A DNA stretch of 63,944 nucleotides, filler included, from Asterionella formosa (Eukaryota): assembly GCA_002256025.1 (NCBI GenBank). It is 9 parts of 9 records of this genome, joined end to end, with 100 filler letters (N's around TTAATTAATTAA, not from the genome) between each part and the next. Parts side by side here need not be neighbours in the genome. Positions count along the whole stretch, not along the records: positions 26,283 to 52,397 come from NKIB01001824.1; 8 more parts are not named here. The stretch is one strand, 5' to 3'. Of the stretch, positions 24,190 through 62,636 are shown piece by piece. The notes under the pieces were generated by a model. It saw nothing but the letters and a program-made list of their open reading frames with translations. It was not told the DNA's origin and did not search any database. Position 1 is the first letter of the stretch. Each line of letters opens with the position of its first letter. The position numbers were made by a program, and so were the translations under genes.

Positions 24190-25524
24190 CTACATTAATC
24201 CTATTTCAGTCAGTTCACGCCGTCGGCGCAACACATTAGCCTGAGGTCGCCTAAACCCATTGTTGGTGACAATATCAAGAATAATTTGCCGAATCTGTGA
24301 AGTACCTTGTACTACATCCAACTTCCTGACAGTTGGAAGATAAGCCCACCCAAGAGGAGCATTGGGCATTGGATCAACAAGCTCTTAAGTATTCAGATTC
24401 AAAACCATTAGCAAGTTCTTTCTTTTTATCATCATCAATGAGTAGGCAAAAATTGTGTAAGCGGGCACAAGCAGAAAGAATTGCAACTGATTTCTTCATT
24501 CTGAAGGACAAGGATGTCCTCAGGGTCCTCCATTTATTGGTGAGCAATCCAAACGTCATCTCACTTCAAATGAGTAGTTGCGAAAGGAAATAGTGGTTGT
24601 ATGCATCTTTGTTTGTTGATTCCCTTTGATTTCTAACAAAGCGACAGAGGACTTGATCAGTTAATGTGTAAGCAGCATCTGTATTGTCCTGGACAAAGGT
24701 TGGATACAATCTGAAAAAGTTTTGTTCTTTCAAATGACTTCTGATCTGTACATTTTTCTGTTGCTACAACACCAAAGTATAAGGAACAAAAATTAATGAC
24801 GCAAACAGCTTGAACATTCAATCCATACAACATATAATTCCCATTCCAATATGCTTGAGGGAAGCCGTCATCTTCCTTTTTTCTTGGTTTGGCAATAGGC
24901 TGTAAACACCCATCTATAGCGCGCACCAATGCATCCACGAAATAGTTGCCGCTCGCATTTTCAAGAAATCCATTCATCACTGCTTGTTTCTCTTTGTTTG
25001 TTACAGGGAATTGAATTGATAATGCTGTGTAGGAGTTCACTGCATCGAGGAAAGTTTTAGTGATTGCATAAACAGATGGATAAGAAACTCAATAGACGTG
25101 ATAAATGTCTATGAGGTTTCCGCCTGCAAGCCAGCGAAGGCCAACGGCGAGAATCAACTCTGGAGAAATATGCTGATTTGTGCTGTATAAAACGGAACTT
25201 GCATTTGATTTGACAGCATCAACTGTGATGGAAGTTCGAAGTAGTTGCAGTAAGTGATTGAAAGCTTGAAGAGACATGCGATATTCACAATGAAACCTAT
25301 TCTCATGGAGAAGCTTTATTACATGATCATTCCAGGCAAGTCGTTGATGCTCCCATTTTGCTGATTGCACTGGCTTCGAGTTTCGTCCATAGGACTCCAA
25401 AAATGATAATGCAACTGCTGCAAGTAACAAAAAGCTCTGTTGTTCCGCTTGTATTTCTTGTTCTATATCAAGAATTTCAATGACAGCCCAAATGCATGTC
25501 AGGTTCTTCTATTCGATTTTTCAT
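24190..25524 (-). mobile_element. PIF/Harbinger DDE transposase pseudogene (DDE_Tnp_4-like)
   Basis: YRMSLQAFNHL, LAVGLRWLAGG, AIDG, YGLNVQAVC, TFGLLTNKWR, CARLHNFC motifs spread over several frames with stops. Confidence 0.9.
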
Positions 25525-26182: not shown

Positions 26183-26282
26183 NNNNNNNNNNNNNNNNNN
26201 NNNNNNNNNNNNNNNNNNNNNNNNNNTTAATTAATTAANNNNNNNNNNNNNNNNNNNNNNNNNNNNNNNNNNNNNNNNNNNN
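26183..26282. other. Assembly linker N…TTAATTAATTAA…N (also at about 52398, 54088, 55778, 57469, 59159, 60848 and 62537)
   Basis: Identical 12-mer giving stops in all six frames, centred in 100-nt N blocks. Confidence 0.97.
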
Positions 26283-28588
26283 GAGCTCATGTATTTTTTT
26301 GTCACATTCATGTACTCCACTTGTTGATCCTCCTCCATCTTCGACATCGTGGCAACAGCTGCCATACTTGCTCCAACAATGGCAGCACCAGTGGCTCCTG
26401 CAATCACTCCAGCATCCACGAAAGGACTTGATGTTTGGGGAGGCGAAGTTCGTTTTGTCATTGCATAAACTTGGGATTTCACTTCGGTTTTTGGGACATA
26501 ATCTTGTGTTTGTGAACAGTACTGCTTTTTCAATTCATCAACCTCGTCACCAAAAGAGGGTGAAACGGACATTGATAAATTGACATGGTCCATGTAGTCA
26601 GGATTTTGAGGTAATTCCATAAAGCTGGCTTTCTCACAACCTGATATTGTCAAGGCAGAACAAGGCACAGTATCAGCAGGAGTTAAGTAAGCACTTTGAT
26701 CATCATCCCCGGTACTCGAAGCAACATCGTTTGCCACAACAACGGAATCAAAATCAGTGAAAAAGGCAGGTCTCATGGTATTGGAAGTTTCATGGACTAG
26801 TGTTTCCATTGACGTATTGGCTTGTTCAACGTGATTACCAGGAATTGGAGTCATTTTACTGTGTGTTGTATGTGCAGGAGCATTTTTTGATTCACTTGAC
26901 TGGCTCTTGTTGTTACCAGAGGATGCTGTGAAAAAATTAGTGAGTGGCAATTCAGGAGAAAAATCATCTGATAACATTGTAGTATTGGTTACAACAATTT
27001 TTTTATTCTCTTCCTTTGGGCTACTATTTGCTGACTTGGAATGAACAAATTCCTCAATTTGATGAACAACATCTAAATTGAAACTCAATGGCATTCTCTC
27101 CAGCACTTTTGAACGTTTATTTCCATCCTCATGTGTCTTATGGTGAGCAAAATCGAATTGTCTCCAATACTCTGCTTCGTTTGCCATCTTGGAGTGCACG
27201 ACTAATTGAGATGCATCAACTACATCAGATCCCATTTTCAATCGAATATGGCATTTGACCCCGTAAGAAGAAACAATCATTTGAAATGCTCGCATATGTG
27301 ACAAGGATGGACAAGCATATTTGTCACGAGGTGTCATTTTTGTTCTCAAGTATGGAATCAAATTAACAATCCATTTCTTGCCTTGTGAAAGTCGTCCCAG
27401 CTGTTGAGCACACTCTAATTCACTGGTGCTTCCTTCCACCATGAGATATTCCATCATAACATTTTGGCGATGGATAATCCTGGTACTTCCAGTATCATTG
27501 GGGTTGAGAGAGTCCGAAGTGACAATACTAATGTCATCCTCGTCATATAGTTGATGCATGTGTTGCTCCGCAGCCTCCAAGAGTCCTTCTAATGGATACA
27601 AGGGTGCCACCAATGGAACCACTTTTTCTCTCAATTCTTGTGTGGGTGCATGTAATCCAATGGCCAAAATCACGGATGGAACATCACGTGTTAAATCATA
27701 CATCCGTGACGTCACTCCTGCGGTTCCAATGGTAATGTGACCCTTCCCTAAATTAAATGTGTGTGCGTCCAACAAGTGGTGACAGGCAGTCACAACATGA
27801 TCGTAATTCATCAAGGGTTCGCCAGTTCCCATAAAACTCACGTTTTGCACTTGGCACCCAGGAAATAAAGTTGTTGCATGAATAACTTGTTCCAAAATCT
27901 CGTAAGCAGTCAAGTTTTGCACAGTGTCTGTTGACACAGCGGAAGGTCCATCATGATGGCCGCAGGGATCCAAGCAATATGATCCCACTTGACTGGATAC
28001 AGTCACACTGAGACAAGTTTGATCCTTGAGCTTGTACTGAGTCACTACAGTTCGGACATGGCGACCAGACGAAGGGAGTACAAGATGAAATTGAATAGAA
28101 TGCCCGCTTGCACTAGCAGCAGTAGAGGCAATGGTCGTTGTCATAGTGCGATACATACCACTGTTGAGCACATAGTCGATTAATCGTAGTGGTATGTGAT
28201 GGCTGACCTGATGGCGTACCGTGTGGCGGAGTTGAGGATGCGTTACTGCCTTGAGAGCTTGGAGTTCATTACGGTAGGATTGGAACAATGTCTCAAGGGG
28301 TGGAAAGCCTTGTTGAAACAGACGAATGTAAAGAGAATCGATTTGTCGTGGTTTGATGATGACGCCAGCATGATCGAGTGCACGTTGAAGGGCGCCTCTA
28401 TCTAGAATGGACTTTATCCCTGATGACGAAGGCCTGATGTCAACGAATTCTCGCGTCATGTTGTCTCGCGAAATGATTTCTGAGACTGCATCAGATATGG
28501 CTGAGGTTGGAGATATCGGCGAGGATGGCGATGAGGATGCTGTAATTATGCTCGTTGATGCATCCTGTGACAAACTTGCTGCAATCAT
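26283..28588 (-). CDS. RlmN/Cfr-like radical-SAM-fold protein, apparently catalytically dead, with a long low-complexity C-terminus; 3' end runs into a gap
   Basis: VSSQVG, NLTAYEILEQV, NVSFMGTGEPLMNY, LHAPTQELR, EYLM and VNLIPY motifs follow RlmN order, but CxxxCxxC and the ACGQL cysteine are missing. Confidence 0.8.
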
Positions 28589-28804
28589 TTTGATTTTGTA
28601 GAATTTTTAATGGAACGATCCAAGAAACAAATGCGAAGATTTCGCAACAAACAAGAAAACCAGTGTATAATAGTGATAGACGGGTCTGCAACCACAAAAT
28701 GGATGCGAACACACAATCCAAGAGCGAACCAGAAGATGAGGGGCGCAGGTGGGAATGAGAATCCCTTTTTAATATGGTGTGTACGGGTACTCGGCTCGTT
28801 CATG

Positions 28805-29212
28805 ATGTGTACCTGGTACCAGGTACCAGCAAGAATGGGATGAAGGTAGCTAAATGTTTAGCTTCAGCACAATGACCGGAACTTGCAGGTTGACATACCC
28901 TCACCGTCCGGGCTGGTGCGTAGATATGTGGTAGATGTGGTAGTCCGTCTACTACGGTACGTTATCACCAGTGGTACCCTGGTACGTGGTACCGGTACTA
29001 GATAGAATTCCTGTACCGGTAGCATATTTTTCATAAGTTCCAGCTGGCAGAATATACACCACAATATCTCTATGTACGTGTTTTTCTGTAGGTAGTCCTA
29101 ATGTTTGTTTGTCTCCCTCCTCCTTCCGCCGATCACGCCCTCTCCCTCATCGGATCGCATAATGGGATCAGATGCAACCTGAGTACCAGGTACCAGAACC
29201 AGTACCTGGTAC
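28805..29212. promoter_or_regulatory. Cluster of GGTACC(A/T)/TACCGGTA motifs in a divergent promoter (representative of several clusters)
   Basis: GTACCTGGTACCAGGTACCAG (28809), GGTACCCTGGTACGTGGTACCGGTAC (about 28973) and GTACCAGGTACCAG…GTACCTGGTAC (29183) lie between the RlmN-like and GOT1 start codons. Confidence 0.5.
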
Positions 29213-29421
29213 ACGATGCTTATCATTGTACTTGACTATTAAATGTCAGGGTCTACAAATCATCTACGGAAATAGATGCAATCATCGTTGCTAAGGATCC
29301 ATTTCAATCATCAATGTCAGCAACAAACGCGTAATCTACCGATAGACTGTTCCTTGCTATATAATTACGAATCCAAAACCAGACAAGGAGCTCTCCACAG
29401 CATCCAGCATCCGTTTTGCCA

Positions 29422-30424
29422 ATGTTCTCATCAAAAGCAAGACTGTCGCTCTTTTCCTGCCTTTGCATCTCGGTATTGTGCTTGGGTTGCGTCGAAGCAC
29501 GACCGGGGAATGCCTTTCAACCAAGGTCAATTGCATTTGAAACTCCGTATTTATCCGTTACTGTTCGAGGAGGATCCGAGCGTTCTGCTGAGGAAGACAT
29601 TTATTATTCTCAACGTAGAAATCCGAAATATGGTCTAGAACAGTCTGAACAAGAGTATTACCGACAAGATGGAAAGTATAATACGGACGACGATAGGTAT
29701 TTCGACAGAGAATATGATGATCGAGGAGGATTTGAACCATCGGTACGTGACTACATTCTTCCAGATGGTCGAGTTTCTGCTATGGTTTTGGTGTAAAAAC
29801 GTTGTAGCTCACAAAGAGGTCGCACTCTAAACATTCGCCTATCATGAATGCAAAATATCACAGCCTCCAACACCAGTCGTTCGAGCAACGACGGAATCCA
29901 TCCAAAACATGTCCAAATTATTAAAAAATGGTAATCGGAAAATTGGTCTTCCCATGTTGGCGGCCGGTGCTGTCTTTACAGTATTAGGTGTAAGTTTGTT
30001 TTTCAATAAATCTCTATTGCGGCTGGGCAATATATTGTTCATTGCAGGCGTTCCCATTACTATTGGACCTGGTCGAACTGCAGGATATTTCTTTCAACCT
30101 AAAAAGTCCCGAGCCACAGGATGCTTGGCGTTTGGAATCTTTTTGGTATTGGTGGGTTGGCCGGTCTTTGGTATTGTTTTGGAAATATTTGGATTGTTGA
30201 ATTTGTTTGGTAATATGTTTCCTATTGTGATAGCCATGCTAAAGCAAATGCCTGTGATTGGACCAATTTTGAAAGGAAATGGAGATAGTGGTAGATCCAA
30301 ACGGCGACGAGAAGAATACTACAGTGATGATGGGTATGGTCGACGAGATGAGCAGTACTACGACGGCGAGGATAATCAACGATACGATGATCGAGAGGAT
30401 CATCGACGCGACCAATATTATTAA
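29422..30424 (+). CDS. GOT1: Got1/GOLT1-family vesicle transport protein with an N-terminal signal-peptide-like extension; 2 exons
   Basis: Exon 1 29422-29742, GT-AG intron 29743-29863, exon 2 29864-30424 in frame. KIG…LGVSLFFNKSLLRLGNILFIAG…FF…GWPVFGIVLEIFGLLNLFGNMFP is the Got1 signature. Confidence 0.85.
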
Positions 30425-33629: not shown

Positions 33630-34916
33630 CTAAGGTGCAGAACGACCCCACGACAAAATCATCCCATCCATACCCCCACTCATAAAATCAAAGGAAAAAG
33701 GCTCCATAGTTTCCAAGCAAGTAACGCTATCGAGATGCCCTTGTATTGTACGTACAGGCTTTCCTCCGAGCTGAACATCAAAGCCATATATGGTCTTGCC
33801 ATTTCCCGTCCATGCTATTGTTTGTTTACCACAATTTTGGACCAAAAGAGGAACATTTTTATTGCTCGATTGAATCGGCGGTTGGCTTCCATGCGAGTGA
33901 AAGTTAAGAGGGATCAAATTCGCATTCGTTCGCAAATCCCAAACTTGTAGCTTACCGTCTTTACCAGTACTTATGATAAAATGTCCATCTGGCGTAAACG
34001 ACATGGCTGAGATGGGCCCACCATGCGATACAATAGTCTTGTTTTCCACAGAATGATAATTGTTGGGTCCTTCCATAATGGTTTTTTTCTTTCTAAGATG
34101 CGCATAGTCACCTTGATACCTCCGACTGTGGTTCAACTCATGAGTGTTTCTATTCAAAATGGCCATACAAGCCCTTGATCCCGACTTTCGAATATCCCAC
34201 AATCGTATAGTCCCATCCAGTCCTCCACTCATGAGAATGACATCACAAGTCGGAGACCATTTTAACTGCGTAATCCCCCTCATATGCCCCAACAATGAAT
34301 GAGATGCTCCGCCAGATCTCATGTCCAACAATTTAACAATGGTGGTGTCAAACGAGCCTATTGCTACTAGGGACAGGGATCTATCCAGTGATCGTGATAA
34401 GTCTAAGCAGCTTAATATTTTGTTTTCCATTGGTTTCCACTTGACGACTGGTGTCATGGCTTGAGTGTCCCATACAAGAACAGCTCCATCTCGTGCGCCA
34501 GAGAGGAAGGCCCCAGTATCTACTGGATGCCATTGTGCAGCTACAATAGATGATGCATGGCCTCTCTCTGAATTGAACGCGACTCTCAATGATTGTGCCA
34601 CTGGCTTATGCAGATTTCGTTGATTGATATTGTAGTGATGGGTCGCTTCATCTTTACCCCATTTGGACAAGTCGTAGATACTAATGATAGCGTCCATTCC
34701 GCCAGCAAGCAAGAATCGGTGTTCCGTTCGGTCCATGCACAGCGAGGGAATTCCAGACTTGTGAGGTGATGCTATTTCTGGTATTTCGAGCAACGCGACC
34801 CGAGAAGAATGGAATGACGCTATATCACTCCAGAACCCGATGGGGGTCCTCATTCCCAGTTCACGCTCTTTCAACAGCAGGGGCAATGAAAGCTTGTTGT
34901 TGTTGTTGTTGTTGTT
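33630..34916 (-). CDS. ERCC8: WD40 protein, DNA excision repair ERCC8/CSA (Rad28) homologue; start lies in or beyond the N gap
   Basis: RFLLAGGMD…IYDL, QWHPVDTGAFLSG…VWDT, LLDMRSGGASHSLLGH, IRLWDIRKSG match the CSA pattern; (AAC)n poly-Asn tract abuts the gap. Confidence 0.8.
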   Translation of the reverse strand, partial: NNNNNNNKLSLPLLLKERELGMRTPIGFWSDIASFHSSRVALLEIPEIASPHKSGIPSLCMDRTEHRFLLAGGMDAIISIYDLSKWGKDEATHHYNINQRNLHKPVAQSLRVAFNSERGHASSIVAAQWHPVDTGAFLSGARDGAVLVWDTQAMTPVVKWKPMENKILSCLDLSRSLDRSLSLVAIGSFDTTIVKLLDMRSGGASHSLLGHMRGITQLKWSPTCDVILMSGGLDGTIRLWDIRKSGSRACMAILNRNTHELNHSRRYQGDYAHLRKKKTIMEGPNNYHSVENKTIVSHGGPISAMSFTPDGHFIISTGKDGKLQVWDLRTNANLIPLNFHSHGSQPPIQSSNKNVPLLVQNCGKQTIAWTGNGKTIYGFDVQLGGKPVRTIQGHLDSVTCLETMEPFSFDFMSGGMDGMILSWGRSAP

Positions 34917-35984
34917 NNNNNNNNNNNNNNNNNNNNNNNNNNNNNNNNNNNNNNNNNNNNNNNNNNNNNNNNNNNNNNNNNNNNNNNNNNNNNNNNNNNN
35001 NNNNNNNNNNNNNNNNNNNNNNNNNNNNNNNNNNNNNNNNNNNNNNNNNNNNNNNNNNNNNNNNNNNNNNNNNNNNNNNNNNNNNNNNNNNNNNNNNNNN
35101 NNNNNNNNNNNNNNNNNNNNNNNNNNNNNNNNNNNNNNNNNNNGAGGACCGTTGACAATGAATGATGACATGATGATTATCATGGGACGGAAACGAAGTA
35201 CCGCATGCAAATCTTTTTGTTTGTGACAATAAAAAAAACCTTATTACTTACCGGTACGGTATAATCAGTAATATCATAGCTATCTATGTAGGTGATTGTT
35301 GTAACAGGTTTCATGATGTCAGATGACATCATCATCAGGGTATCGTTCTTGTACCACTCATTTATGACGGCATATATACCGAAATAAATAATGACAAAGA
35401 AGCCCATGTACAAGCCAATTATTGAATATGAAAAAAGGTTCAACAAAGGTTATTTCACCTTTTTTTTGATAGCATAGGCCCCCCCCTCACCAAAGTAGGT
35501 GAGCATCCAGATGTGTCCCACTGATTTCGGCTTGGACACCACAGGGTGGGAGTCCTTAAGGCCCGAGAAGGTTGAATTCTACCTGAGCGAGTGAAAGCAA
35601 CACTATGCTGCTGCTAGATATTTGGTGTGCAAACCAAACAGGATGGTGTATTTATATGGCTGGCTATACTACGGTACACTGAGCGCATGAGCTCTGAGCA
35701 GGCGTCACCCTGTGGTGTTTAGCAGAAAGGCTGCAAAAATGACTGTCAAACAACTGCATACTTGTACAGTGCCATGATTTCATCTTCCGGAAAGAGGTAT
35801 TTGACGAGTAAGGCTGGAACAACATTGCATGTCCTACCTTTTTTAGGCCTCAAATGGCGTGAGCGAGAACCATGAATTGGAGACAGCTTACAGACTTTGC
35901 TGTCAAGAAGGATTCCACATGCCTCTTCCTTTTACAGCTAGGTTCTAGCCAGTGAATGATGAGTAGCCAAATGTATGAACACAA

Positions 35985-61200: not shown

Positions 61201-61719
61201 GACCGCAACTTGCTGGTGCCAGTTATACCCTGTATTCGCAATTTTTGGTACGTTTTCAACCGCTTTTCGTCCTCAAAATCAACTACAACCAGGCATACCT
61301 TGTATTGGGCATCGCAACGTCTTCCAAGAGAAGGTATCAGTCGTTTGACTTTTTTCAAGACAAGGTGATATATACCATTCCAATACAAGGTTTGTATTGG
61401 CTAAAGGTCGGTGTGTCAAGTCTAAGGGTCGTTCTTATCATTTTTTTTCGTGTATCACGGAATTTGAATTTTTTTGAAAATGTATCAGCAACGGTAACTC
61501 GATTTGAACTGAATTTCATTCATTCCAAAAGTGTCACTGTATCACTAATTTGTGATCACATTGTATCATGGAGTAAAATGAATCTTCAACGGCAACTGGC
61601 TGGCGAAGATCATGTGTATATCCCTCCGGAATATAATGATGGTCTTGATATCAAGCAACAACAAAATATAATTACCGGGAAACTAAATATAATATTAAAA
61701 ACACACATTTGCATGAATC

Positions 61720-62536
61720 ATGTCGTCGCCATTTGATTTACTTGATGATAATGACGATGACAGTAGTGATCTTGATTTCTTCTTCCTCTGTCATTTAGCT
61801 AAGGAAGCAGAGGAAAAAGAACACTCATCCAAACGACAAAGGCGACGCTGTAAACGGCAGCTTCAGTCATCTGAACGACGACGACAACGAAGGCACAAGT
61901 GGCACCACGAAAGAATCTCCTGGCAATCACATGTCGAGAAACTCAATCACGAGATTGCTTTCGAGAAGACATACAGAATGTCACACAGAGCATTCAAAAA
62001 ACTCACCTCCATGCTGGAAATTCAGATTGCAGGGAATTATTCCAAATGTGGCACTTCTGAGCCCATAATTCCCGAAATTGTGGTAGCCATTGGTTTGCGA
62101 TGGCTGGCTGGTGGCAGTTACATCGACATTCGTCATGCCTACGGTTGTAGCATTGCTTCACTTTATCGATGTCGTGATTTGTTCATTGATGCTGTACTAA
62201 ACTGTGGAGAACTCGAAATTGTTTTTCCAAAAGAAAAAGAAGAATTTATCAAATTGGCTTCCAGCTTTGAATGCAAAAGCTCAGAGGGCATGATGAGAGG
62301 ATGTGTTGGTGCTATTGACGGCTTCCTAGCCACCATCAACCGCCCGACTATAGTTGAAAGTGGCAACAACCCTGGTTCATTTTTTTCCGGTCACTACATG
62401 ACTTATGGAATCAATGTCCAGGCTGTTTGTGATGCTGACTCAAGATTTATTTATTTTGGTGTAATTGCACCGGGAAAATGCAGTGACCAAGTAGCTTTTG
62501 AACGAACTTCCATTTTCGATCGAGTTGCAGCATTCA
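61720..62536 (+). mobile_element. PIF/Harbinger transposase, open frame, truncated by a gap
   Basis: FEKTYRMSHRAFKKL, IGLRWLAGGSY, GCVGAIDG, FFSGHYMTYGINVQAVCD, APGKCSD motifs; same family as 24190-25524. Confidence 0.92.
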
Positions 62537-62636
62537 NNNNNNNNNNNNNNNNNNNNNNNNNNNNNNNNNNNNNNNNNNNNTTAATTAATTAANNNNNNNN
62601 NNNNNNNNNNNNNNNNNNNNNNNNNNNNNNNNNNNN

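What the first reader, a model, noticed from the sequence alone, without database searches (positions are those of the whole stretch)
26283..28588. Intact RlmN-fold gene that has lost every catalytic and Fe-S cysteine (candidate pseudoenzyme)
Seen: where RlmN has LCVSSQVGCxxxCxxC this ORF has SVTVSSQVGSYCLDPCGHH (about 27955-28005). Where RlmN has GxDIxAACGQL it has MGSDVVDASQL (about 27200-27235). MGMGEP is MGTGEP. The frame is nonetheless uninterrupted for more than 760 codons and the barrel motifs are kept. Known: RlmN/Cfr need the CxxxCxxC cluster plus the two cysteines equivalent to E. coli C118 and C355. Inference: this is a retained non-catalytic paralogue, perhaps an RNA-binding or regulatory protein, or one with a remodelled metal site (CxxxC-GHH), fused to an approximately 300-aa disordered tail.
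Basis: partly seen in the sequence, partly recalled or inferred. Interest (0 to 1): 0.75.

Follow-up and report, generated by a model that had tools for sequence, protein, structure and literature searches.

The report
Catalytically dead RlmN paralogue family, diatom
This diatom gene is an expressed, selected copy of the tRNA-methylating enzyme RlmN that has lost its chemistry but kept its fold and membrane anchor, and it belongs to an old, apparently undescribed family of such dead copies that may bind RNA rather than modify it.

Summary
The ORF (28588-26283, minus) has the RlmN fold. It lacks both catalytic cysteines (C118 is Thr; the C355 loop has no Cys) and the canonical CxxxCxxC, though two loop cysteines survive as CxxxCxxH. 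RNA-library contigs from two studies match it without introns or restored cysteines. Core polymorphism is mostly synonymous (6 of 8; pN/pS 0.11). The ORF runs into a heterozygous assembly gap. Two haplotype contigs complete a 1071-aa protein that ends in a predicted membrane anchor, like the intact paralogue in the same genome and Toxoplasma TgRlmN. Nineteen degenerate sequences (15 groups at 75% identity) form one well-supported clade beside intact tail-anchored RlmNs, and a recent species-specific duplication is rejected. C118 is lost in 19 of 19 and C355 in 7 of 7; the Fe-S motif survives in only 3 of 19. Some relatives carry two dead barrels in tandem. Barrel residues that clamp RNA backbone in Cfr are mostly kept, and a new aromatic-basic motif follows the barrel. 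Best reading: a membrane-tethered, non-catalytic RNA-binding pseudoenzyme. Binding and location are inferred, not shown. My literature searches found no description.

The parts
26283..28588 (-). Pseudo-RlmN ORF, first 768 of 1071 codons; it runs into an assembly gap
   Evidence: identical single copy at G000:C1824; full length from overlap with L088; 1077-aa strain form P0170
28421..28588 (-). Ser-rich N-terminal leader (aa 1-56); a second ATG (M44) lies at 28459
   Evidence: sequence; P0170 starts at M1, P0020 at M44
27182..28420 (-). RlmN-fold region: N-terminal helical domain, beta extension and partial barrel (aa 57-469)
   Evidence: TIGR00048; AF2 pTM 0.81; Foldseek to RlmN 6fz6/5hr7, E 3e-22 to 5e-22
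28001..28003 (-). Thr196 at the position of the resolving cysteine C118
   Evidence: Ser in 18 of 18 degenerate relatives, Cys in 48 of 48 intact rows
27953..27976 (-). Remnant cluster loop C205-x3-C209-x2-H212, shifted by a 2-residue insertion and followed by an insertion
   Evidence: pLDDT under 50 over this loop
27815..27832 (-). MGTGEP motif (M178 column is Thr)
27203..27235 (-). C355 loop without cysteine (methyl carrier lost)
   Evidence: Cys absent in 7 of 7 degenerate C-terminal halves
27137..27178 (-). Derived aromatic-basic motif after the barrel ([FY]W then hydrophobic and K/R-rich), in place of the DIED motif of intact relatives
   Evidence: [FY]W in 6 of 7 degenerate C-terminal halves; low-confidence helix in both models
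26283..27136 (-). First part of an acidic low-complexity linker of about 550 aa; includes a Gly/Ala-rich hydrophobic stretch at 26351-26407
   Evidence: linker net charge -44; best KD19 in the window ORF 1.85 at aa 728-746
26183..26282 (.). Assembly gap; the rest of the ORF, the C-terminal membrane anchor and the stop lie on haplotype contigs G000:C3257 (L088) and C6514 (L087)

Best explanation
An ancient duplicate of the tail-anchored eukaryotic RlmN (the group that matches clade III/RLMNL3, the cytosolic tRNA m2A37 writer). It lost its methyl-transfer chemistry and is kept by selection as a non-catalytic, membrane-tethered RNA-binding protein. Shown here: loss of C118, C355 and the canonical cluster motif; retained fold; expression; selection; one old clade; a C-terminal hydrophobic helix; an intact paralogue alongside. 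Inferred order of decay: C355 and C118 went first (C118 to Ser with C355 intact would leave a dead-end RNA crosslink), then the cluster loop and SAM pocket eroded to different degrees. Inferred function: the barrel faces the cytosol on a long linker from an organelle surface (outer mitochondrial membrane by analogy with TgRlmN) and holds tRNA or a tRNA-shaped RNA without modifying it, as a tether, shield or competitor of the active paralogue. The 'dead, old, selected pseudoenzyme' part is about 0.85 likely. The confidence given is for the whole statement, including RNA binding.
For: Dead chemistry; C118 and C355 are essential (PMC9692996 passages); Cfr C105A/S traps a crosslink (10.64898/2026.02.27.707579). 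Expression: RNA-library contigs X3, X10 and X13 cover the ORF with no joints and stop at 28455-28638, while the DNA run continues. Selection: 10 of 18 variants synonymous, p 0.003; core 6 of 8, pN/pS 0.11. Old clade: 99 SH-aLRT, 100/99; query grouped with its own intact paralogue is rejected, p-AU 1e-11. Anchor: KD19 2.09 ending 12 aa before the C-terminus; similar in P0173, P0183 and the intact P0306; TgRlmN is tail-anchored in the outer mitochondrial membrane (PMC5749711). RNA clamp: positions equal to Cfr S103, S153, S187, N288 and R327, which bind RNA phosphate or ribose, are S, S, T, N and R here; in the family they are S 17/19, S or T 13/19, T 19/19, N 5/7 and R 6/7. Precedent: laboratory-evolved inactive RlmN blocks methylation by the active enzyme (PMC5062987).
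Against: No RNA binding or localisation was measured. This copy has lost basic residues that intact relatives keep: K94 is Gln, R114 is Cys, R207 is His, R274 is Asn, and E105 is also gone. Its core net charge is -1, against +1 to +13 in eight comparison rows. It sits on the longest branch of the clade (1.0-1.3). The conserved strand residues may be kept for folding alone. The contact positions were transferred from Cfr by sequence alignment, not by structure. P0175 shows no C-terminal hydrophobic helix (it may be incomplete). One of eight strain assemblies is frameshifted at an A run near 26293-26299 (P0167 plus P0172). RNA data are contigs, not stranded reads, and X10 and X13 come from one study. 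The clade of fast-evolving rows could be partly long-branch attraction.
Confidence: 0.5

Rival explanations
1. A pseudoenzyme kept for a protein-level role with no RNA binding: a membrane-anchored scaffold, or a regulatory partner of the active paralogue or of another protein, using the barrel surface and the new aromatic-basic motif.
For: Loss of K94, R114, R207 and R274 and a near-neutral core in this copy. A new shared motif after the barrel. Tandem double-barrel forms in relatives (P0035 with P0037, P0180, P0181). A long acidic linker.
Against: The strand residues that clamp RNA in Cfr are mostly kept. K94 stays K or R in 16 of 17 other degenerate rows and R207 in 15 of 18. The RlmN and Cfr papers read here name no protein partner.
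Confidence: 0.27
2. A remodelled enzyme: the family or this copy still binds an Fe-S cluster or metal (CxxxCxxH here, CxxxCxxC in some relatives) and does radical or redox chemistry other than cysteine-mediated methylation.
For: C205 and C209 survive with a His at the third position. CxxxCxxC is intact in 3 of 19 rows plus P0147. G-E-P, H235 and E278 are kept here.
Against: The loop is eroded in many different ways in 16 of 19 rows, some with no cysteine at all, so no shared metal site exists. N312 is lost in 7 of 7 and S233 is Ser in only 2 of 18 others, and Gly here; their role in SAM binding is recalled, not from a call. The loop has pLDDT under 50.
Confidence: 0.12
3. A duplicate under relaxed selection that is slowly decaying and has no function of its own.
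For: The query has the longest branch. It has more lesions than its relatives. One strain assembly is frameshifted in the linker. Mean identity within the clade is 46% against 66% among intact rows.
Against: The 1071-codon frame is open, and 6 of 9 cluster members are 1028-1077 aa. Core pN/pS is 0.11. The anchor is kept behind a 550-aa linker. The family has persisted to 35-48% identity with many invariant columns.
Confidence: 0.09
4. An assembly or gene-model artefact: errors or hidden introns removed the cysteines.
For: The assembly is fragmented and the ORF abuts a gap.
Against: Three RNA runs and one DNA run show no change at the motifs and no joints. Six other strain proteins carry the same cluster-loop motif and seven the same C355 loop.
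Confidence: 0.02

Closest known systems
RlmN (TIGR00048; E. coli PDB 3RFA, 5HR7), class A radical SAM RNA methyltransferase
   Same: Fold and domain order; GEP, LHAP, EY and NLIP barrel motifs.
   Different: No C118, C355, E105 or canonical CxxxCxxC; 146 bits against a cut-off of 290; a long linker and a C-terminal membrane helix.
Eukaryotic clade III RlmN-like proteins (Arabidopsis RLMNL3; PMC10838301, passages and section 9 read)
   Same: The nearest intact relatives come from green algae-like, oomycete, chytrid and dinoflagellate records (named rows), which matches the described clade III range. The assignment is inferred from that range: RLMNL3 itself was not in my trees.
   Different: RLMNL3 keeps C118, C345, CxxxCxxC and MGMGE and writes m2A37 on cytosolic tRNA; this family has lost them.
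Toxoplasma TgRlmN, tail-anchored in the outer mitochondrial membrane (PMC5749711, passages and section 7 read)
   Same: An RlmN domain facing the cytosol with a C-terminal transmembrane anchor; the same layout is predicted here and in the intact paralogue.
   Different: TgRlmN keeps CxxxCxxC, and its overexpression phenotype needs it; the target membrane here is untested.
Laboratory-evolved dominant-negative RlmN variants (PMC5062987, passages read)
   Same: Full-length inactive RlmN that is thought to compete for RNA with the active enzyme.
   Different: Those are point mutants selected in E. coli, mostly far from the active site; this is a natural, old gene family with its catalytic residues deleted.

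Membership tests
RlmN/Cfr (class A radical SAM methyltransferase) | Partial TIM-barrel radical SAM fold with N-terminal helical domain | tested here: met
   AF2 pTM 0.81; Foldseek top 11 all RlmN or Cfr
RlmN/Cfr (class A radical SAM methyltransferase) | CxxxCxxC cluster motif | tested here: not met
   CxxxCxxH, shifted by two residues
RlmN/Cfr (class A radical SAM methyltransferase) | Methyl-carrier cysteine C355 | tested here: not met
   No Cys in the loop, here or in 7 of 7 family C-terminal halves
RlmN/Cfr (class A radical SAM methyltransferase) | Resolving cysteine C118 | tested here: not met
   Thr196; Ser in 18 of 18 relatives
RlmN/Cfr (class A radical SAM methyltransferase) | Score above the curated TIGR00048 cut-off | tested here: not met
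   146.3 against 290 bits; the intact paralogue was not scored against this model as a control
RlmN/Cfr (class A radical SAM methyltransferase) | m2A or m8A methylation of RNA | not testable with these tools
   needs an assay
Tail-anchored eukaryotic RlmN lineage (by descent) | Groups with intact tail-anchored eukaryotic RlmNs, not bacterial or plastid-type ones | tested here: met
Tail-anchored eukaryotic RlmN lineage (by descent) | Single C-terminal hydrophobic helix followed by a short basic tail | tested here: met
   KD19 2.09, 12 aa from the end; a weaker Gly/Ala-rich stretch at aa 728-746 could be a second membrane segment
Tail-anchored eukaryotic RlmN lineage (by descent) | Location in the outer mitochondrial membrane | not testable with these tools
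   analogy with TgRlmN only
Clade III (RLMNL3) | Clusters with Arabidopsis RLMNL3 | not tested
   RLMNL3 was not among my sequences; inferred from the taxon range
Pseudoenzyme | Expressed, selected, folded protein lacking essential catalytic residues | tested here: met
   no protein-level detection
Pseudoenzyme | Measured absence of catalytic activity | not testable with these tools
   needs an assay

The most novel reading that the evidence does not exclude
The family is a natural radical-SAM-fold 'reader': a membrane-tethered tRNA receptor derived from a tRNA methylase. It would capture cytosolic tRNAs at the mitochondrial surface (for import or local translation) or set the m2A37 level by shielding A37 from the active paralogue, and tandem double-barrel forms would add avidity. 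One paper states that diatom mitochondria seem to lack tRNA-Thr and must import missing tRNAs (PMC3423374, passages). A cut-off passage in another suggests that diatom mitochondria encode a full set (PMC4494062), so the need for import is not settled here.
Probability: 0.2. Interest if true: 0.82.

Novelty: new variant of a known kind. Interest (0 to 1): 0.58.

Why it matters
RlmN/Cfr enzymes are defined by five cysteines that are invariant in all 48 intact rows at the sites they cover. An old, expressed family that dropped the catalytic pair and then shed the Fe-S loop in stages would be a natural pseudoenzyme branch of the radical SAM superfamily. It offers a graded series (cluster kept, half kept, lost) for asking what an RlmN fold does without chemistry, and it bears on why stramenopile and alveolate RlmNs are membrane-anchored at all. 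In practice these proteins are being annotated as active RlmN (source names), which the missing cysteines make very unlikely.

Tried and rejected
Complex prediction of the pseudo-barrel with the spliced intact paralogue P0306: score 0.00, no verdict, and not evidence either way. Metagenome contig scan: 80 loci, none degenerate; it served only as the MG[TS]GEP control. Search for longer forms: 3 hits, only the same gene (P0020) among degenerate ones, so no full-length tandem protein was retrieved and the tandem layout rests on exon-level ORFs. ESM Atlas: generic radical SAM clusters, or unnamed hits under 0.9; nothing specific. Cluster look-ups gave no organism names for the degenerate relatives, so their taxonomy is unknown; 'diatom' for them is inferred from tree position, and for this genome from seven silicon-transporter matches. 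Earlier findings: nothing. The careful mixture-model tree did not finish and its quick tree is reported. P0147 was left out of the trees because its middle looks frameshifted. P0065, P0077 and P0109 lack CxxxCxxC only because they are N-terminally cut. Strain protein variation was lower in the core than in the linker (6 of 436 against 20 of 550 sites, p 0.03), but four linker sites come from one doubtful stretch in P0165, so I give it little weight. Literature: (search listings; PMC12898128 checked by passage) showed no described natural inactive RlmN family. The library lacks most subscription papers, and supplements were not read (the tree and alignment figures of PMC10838301 could hold such sequences). 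Runs X19-X24, with small or no share, were not used.

Full report
Observation. The minus-strand frame 28588-26283 gives 768 residues without a stop. It matches RlmN (TIGR00048, E 1e-42, 146 bits, cut-off 290) and has no Pfam hit. With E. coli numbering taken, the C118 column holds Thr196 and the C355 loop has no cysteine. E105 is Arg, M178 is Thr, S211 and S233 are Gly, and N312 is Leu. The title overstates one point: C205 and C209 remain as CxxxC, two residues out of register, with His212 third. MGTGEP is not a lesion in itself: 70 of 80 metagenome loci had MG[TS]GEP, and 65 of these kept all the cysteine motifs. AlphaFold gives a confident RlmN fold (pTM 0.81) with the cluster loop and the C355 loop under pLDDT 50. 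The top 11 Foldseek hits are RlmN or Cfr.

The whole gene. The ORF ends at an N gap. Its last 118 bases match the ends of two other contigs of G000 at 100%. These are two haplotypes; the longer one runs to a stop. The protein is 1071 aa: leader, RlmN region, an acidic linker of about 550 aa, and a hydrophobic helix (KD19 2.09) ending 12 residues before the C-terminus. Of nine members of its protein cluster, six are 1028-1077 aa. One is N-terminally partial, and one assembly is split by a frameshift at an A run near 26293-26299, which may be an error or a rare allele.

Expression and selection. Contigs from three RNA runs (two studies) cover the ORF with no joints and no change at the motifs. 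They stop at 28455, 28596 and 28638, whereas the DNA run also covers the upstream intergenic stretch. These are contigs, so strand and level are not shown. Of 18 variants in the ORF, 10 are synonymous (expected share 0.235; p 0.003). In aa 55-470, 6 of 8 are synonymous (pN/pS 0.11, p 0.003). X10 and X13 carry nearly the same variants and are not independent.

Intact paralogues. The genome, which is a diatom by inference from seven silicon-transporter matches, holds four other RlmN genes with all their cysteines. The closest, on C7152 (spliced form P0306), also ends in a hydrophobic helix and is 44% identical over the core.

A family. A profile search of 1.84 billion representatives (best 150 listed) and a second search (best 120 of 310 listed) gave further degenerate proteins. 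I placed 19 rows including the query in trees; they fall into 15 groups at 75% identity, and some rows come from one organism. P0147 was left out. The 19 form one clade at SH-aLRT 99, both under LG+G4 and under a mixture model with all catalytic columns dropped (quick tree). A 13-row subset gave 100/99. Holding the query together with its own intact paralogue's lineage is rejected (p-AU 1e-11). So is holding P0006 with P0008, whose longest contigs are both 164,236 bases and are probably the same contig (p-AU 8e-5). The duplication therefore predates these species. Whether the clade is sister to all close intact rows or to the C7152 lineage is unresolved, and the query's long branch calls for care. 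No relative carries an organism name.

Pattern of loss. C118 is Ser in 18 of 18 relatives and Cys in 48 of 48 intact rows. M178 is lost in 19 of 19. Most relatives are cut at an intron after the EY motif. The seven real C-terminal halves all lack C355 and N312. CxxxCxxC survives in 3 of 19, is distorted in others and is wholly gone in some. C118 and C355 are essential (PMC9692996, passages), and a Ser or Ala at the resolving position traps an RNA crosslink in Cfr (10.64898/2026.02.27.707579, whole text read). I infer that C355 was lost no later than C118 and that the cluster loop decayed afterwards. Six of seven C-terminal halves share a new [FY]W aromatic-basic motif where intact rows have DIED; it is a low-confidence helix in both models. 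P0035, P0180 and P0181 contain the end of one barrel followed by the start of a second, and P0035 and P0037 share a contig length, which indicates tandem double-barrel proteins in some species.

How it most likely works. The residues that the Cfr-RNA structure shows holding RNA phosphate and ribose (S103, S153, S187, N288, R327) map by alignment to S194, S251, T286, N409 and R449 here, and are mostly kept across the family. TgRlmN is anchored in the outer mitochondrial membrane (PMC5749711, passages and section 7). Arabidopsis RLMNL3 modifies cytosolic tRNA (PMC10838301, passages and section 9). Inactive full-length RlmN can block the active enzyme (PMC5062987, passages). The best reading is therefore a tethered, non-catalytic tRNA-binding protein (0.5). 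Against it, this copy has lost K94, R114, R207 and R274 and has a near-neutral core; R206, noted as a tRNA contact in PMC5130265 (passages), is not conserved even in intact relatives. The kept residues may serve the fold only. The rivals are a protein scaffold or regulator (0.27), a remodelled enzyme (0.12), a decaying duplicate (0.09) and an artefact (0.02). The roles of S211, S233 and N312 in SAM binding are recalled, not taken from a call.

Comparison and novelty. By descent and fold this is an RlmN; by defining residues it is not a member of the active family. Six literature searches showed no described natural inactive RlmN family. The library omits most subscription papers, and supplements were not read. 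Verdict: a real, expressed pseudoenzyme from an old and apparently undescribed tail-anchored family; a new variant of a known kind; interest 0.58.

Noticed in passing
window 28835-28890: A dispersed repeat of about 55 bp in the divergent intergenic region upstream of the gene, with matches on at least 39 other contigs at 78-95%. It lies between GGTACC-rich imperfect inverted repeats at 28802-28826 and 29202-29226; possibly a small non-autonomous element.
   Followed up: partly
window 29831-30421 (+): Got1/Sft2-like vesicle transport gene, divergent from the pseudo-RlmN.
   Followed up: partly
P0035 with P0037, P0180, P0181 (other organisms): ORFs holding the end of one dead RlmN barrel and the start of a second: tandem double-barrel pseudo-RlmN proteins. 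No full-length form was retrieved.
   Followed up: partly
window 24657-25508 (-) and 61717-62589 (+): Transposase remnants: the first is Harbinger-like by eye with no Pfam hit, the second matches DDE_Tnp_4.
   Followed up: partly
window 26302: A 15-base in-frame duplication in the linker in runs X10 and X13, seen as a five-residue repeat in P0170.
   Followed up: yes
L011, L015-L018, L020, L022-L044, L046-L086: Many apparently prokaryotic RlmNs with intact cysteines carry MG[TS]GEP in place of MGMGEP; a few also end the C355 motif differently (L015, L023, L060).
   Followed up: partly
window 33630-35240 (-): A WD40-repeat ORF that looks like ERCC8/CSA by eye, interrupted by an N gap; not checked against a library.
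   Followed up: no
G000:C15220:1-2469: One open frame of 824 aa with several silicon-transporter matches in tandem, possibly a fused multi-SIT protein.
   Followed up: no
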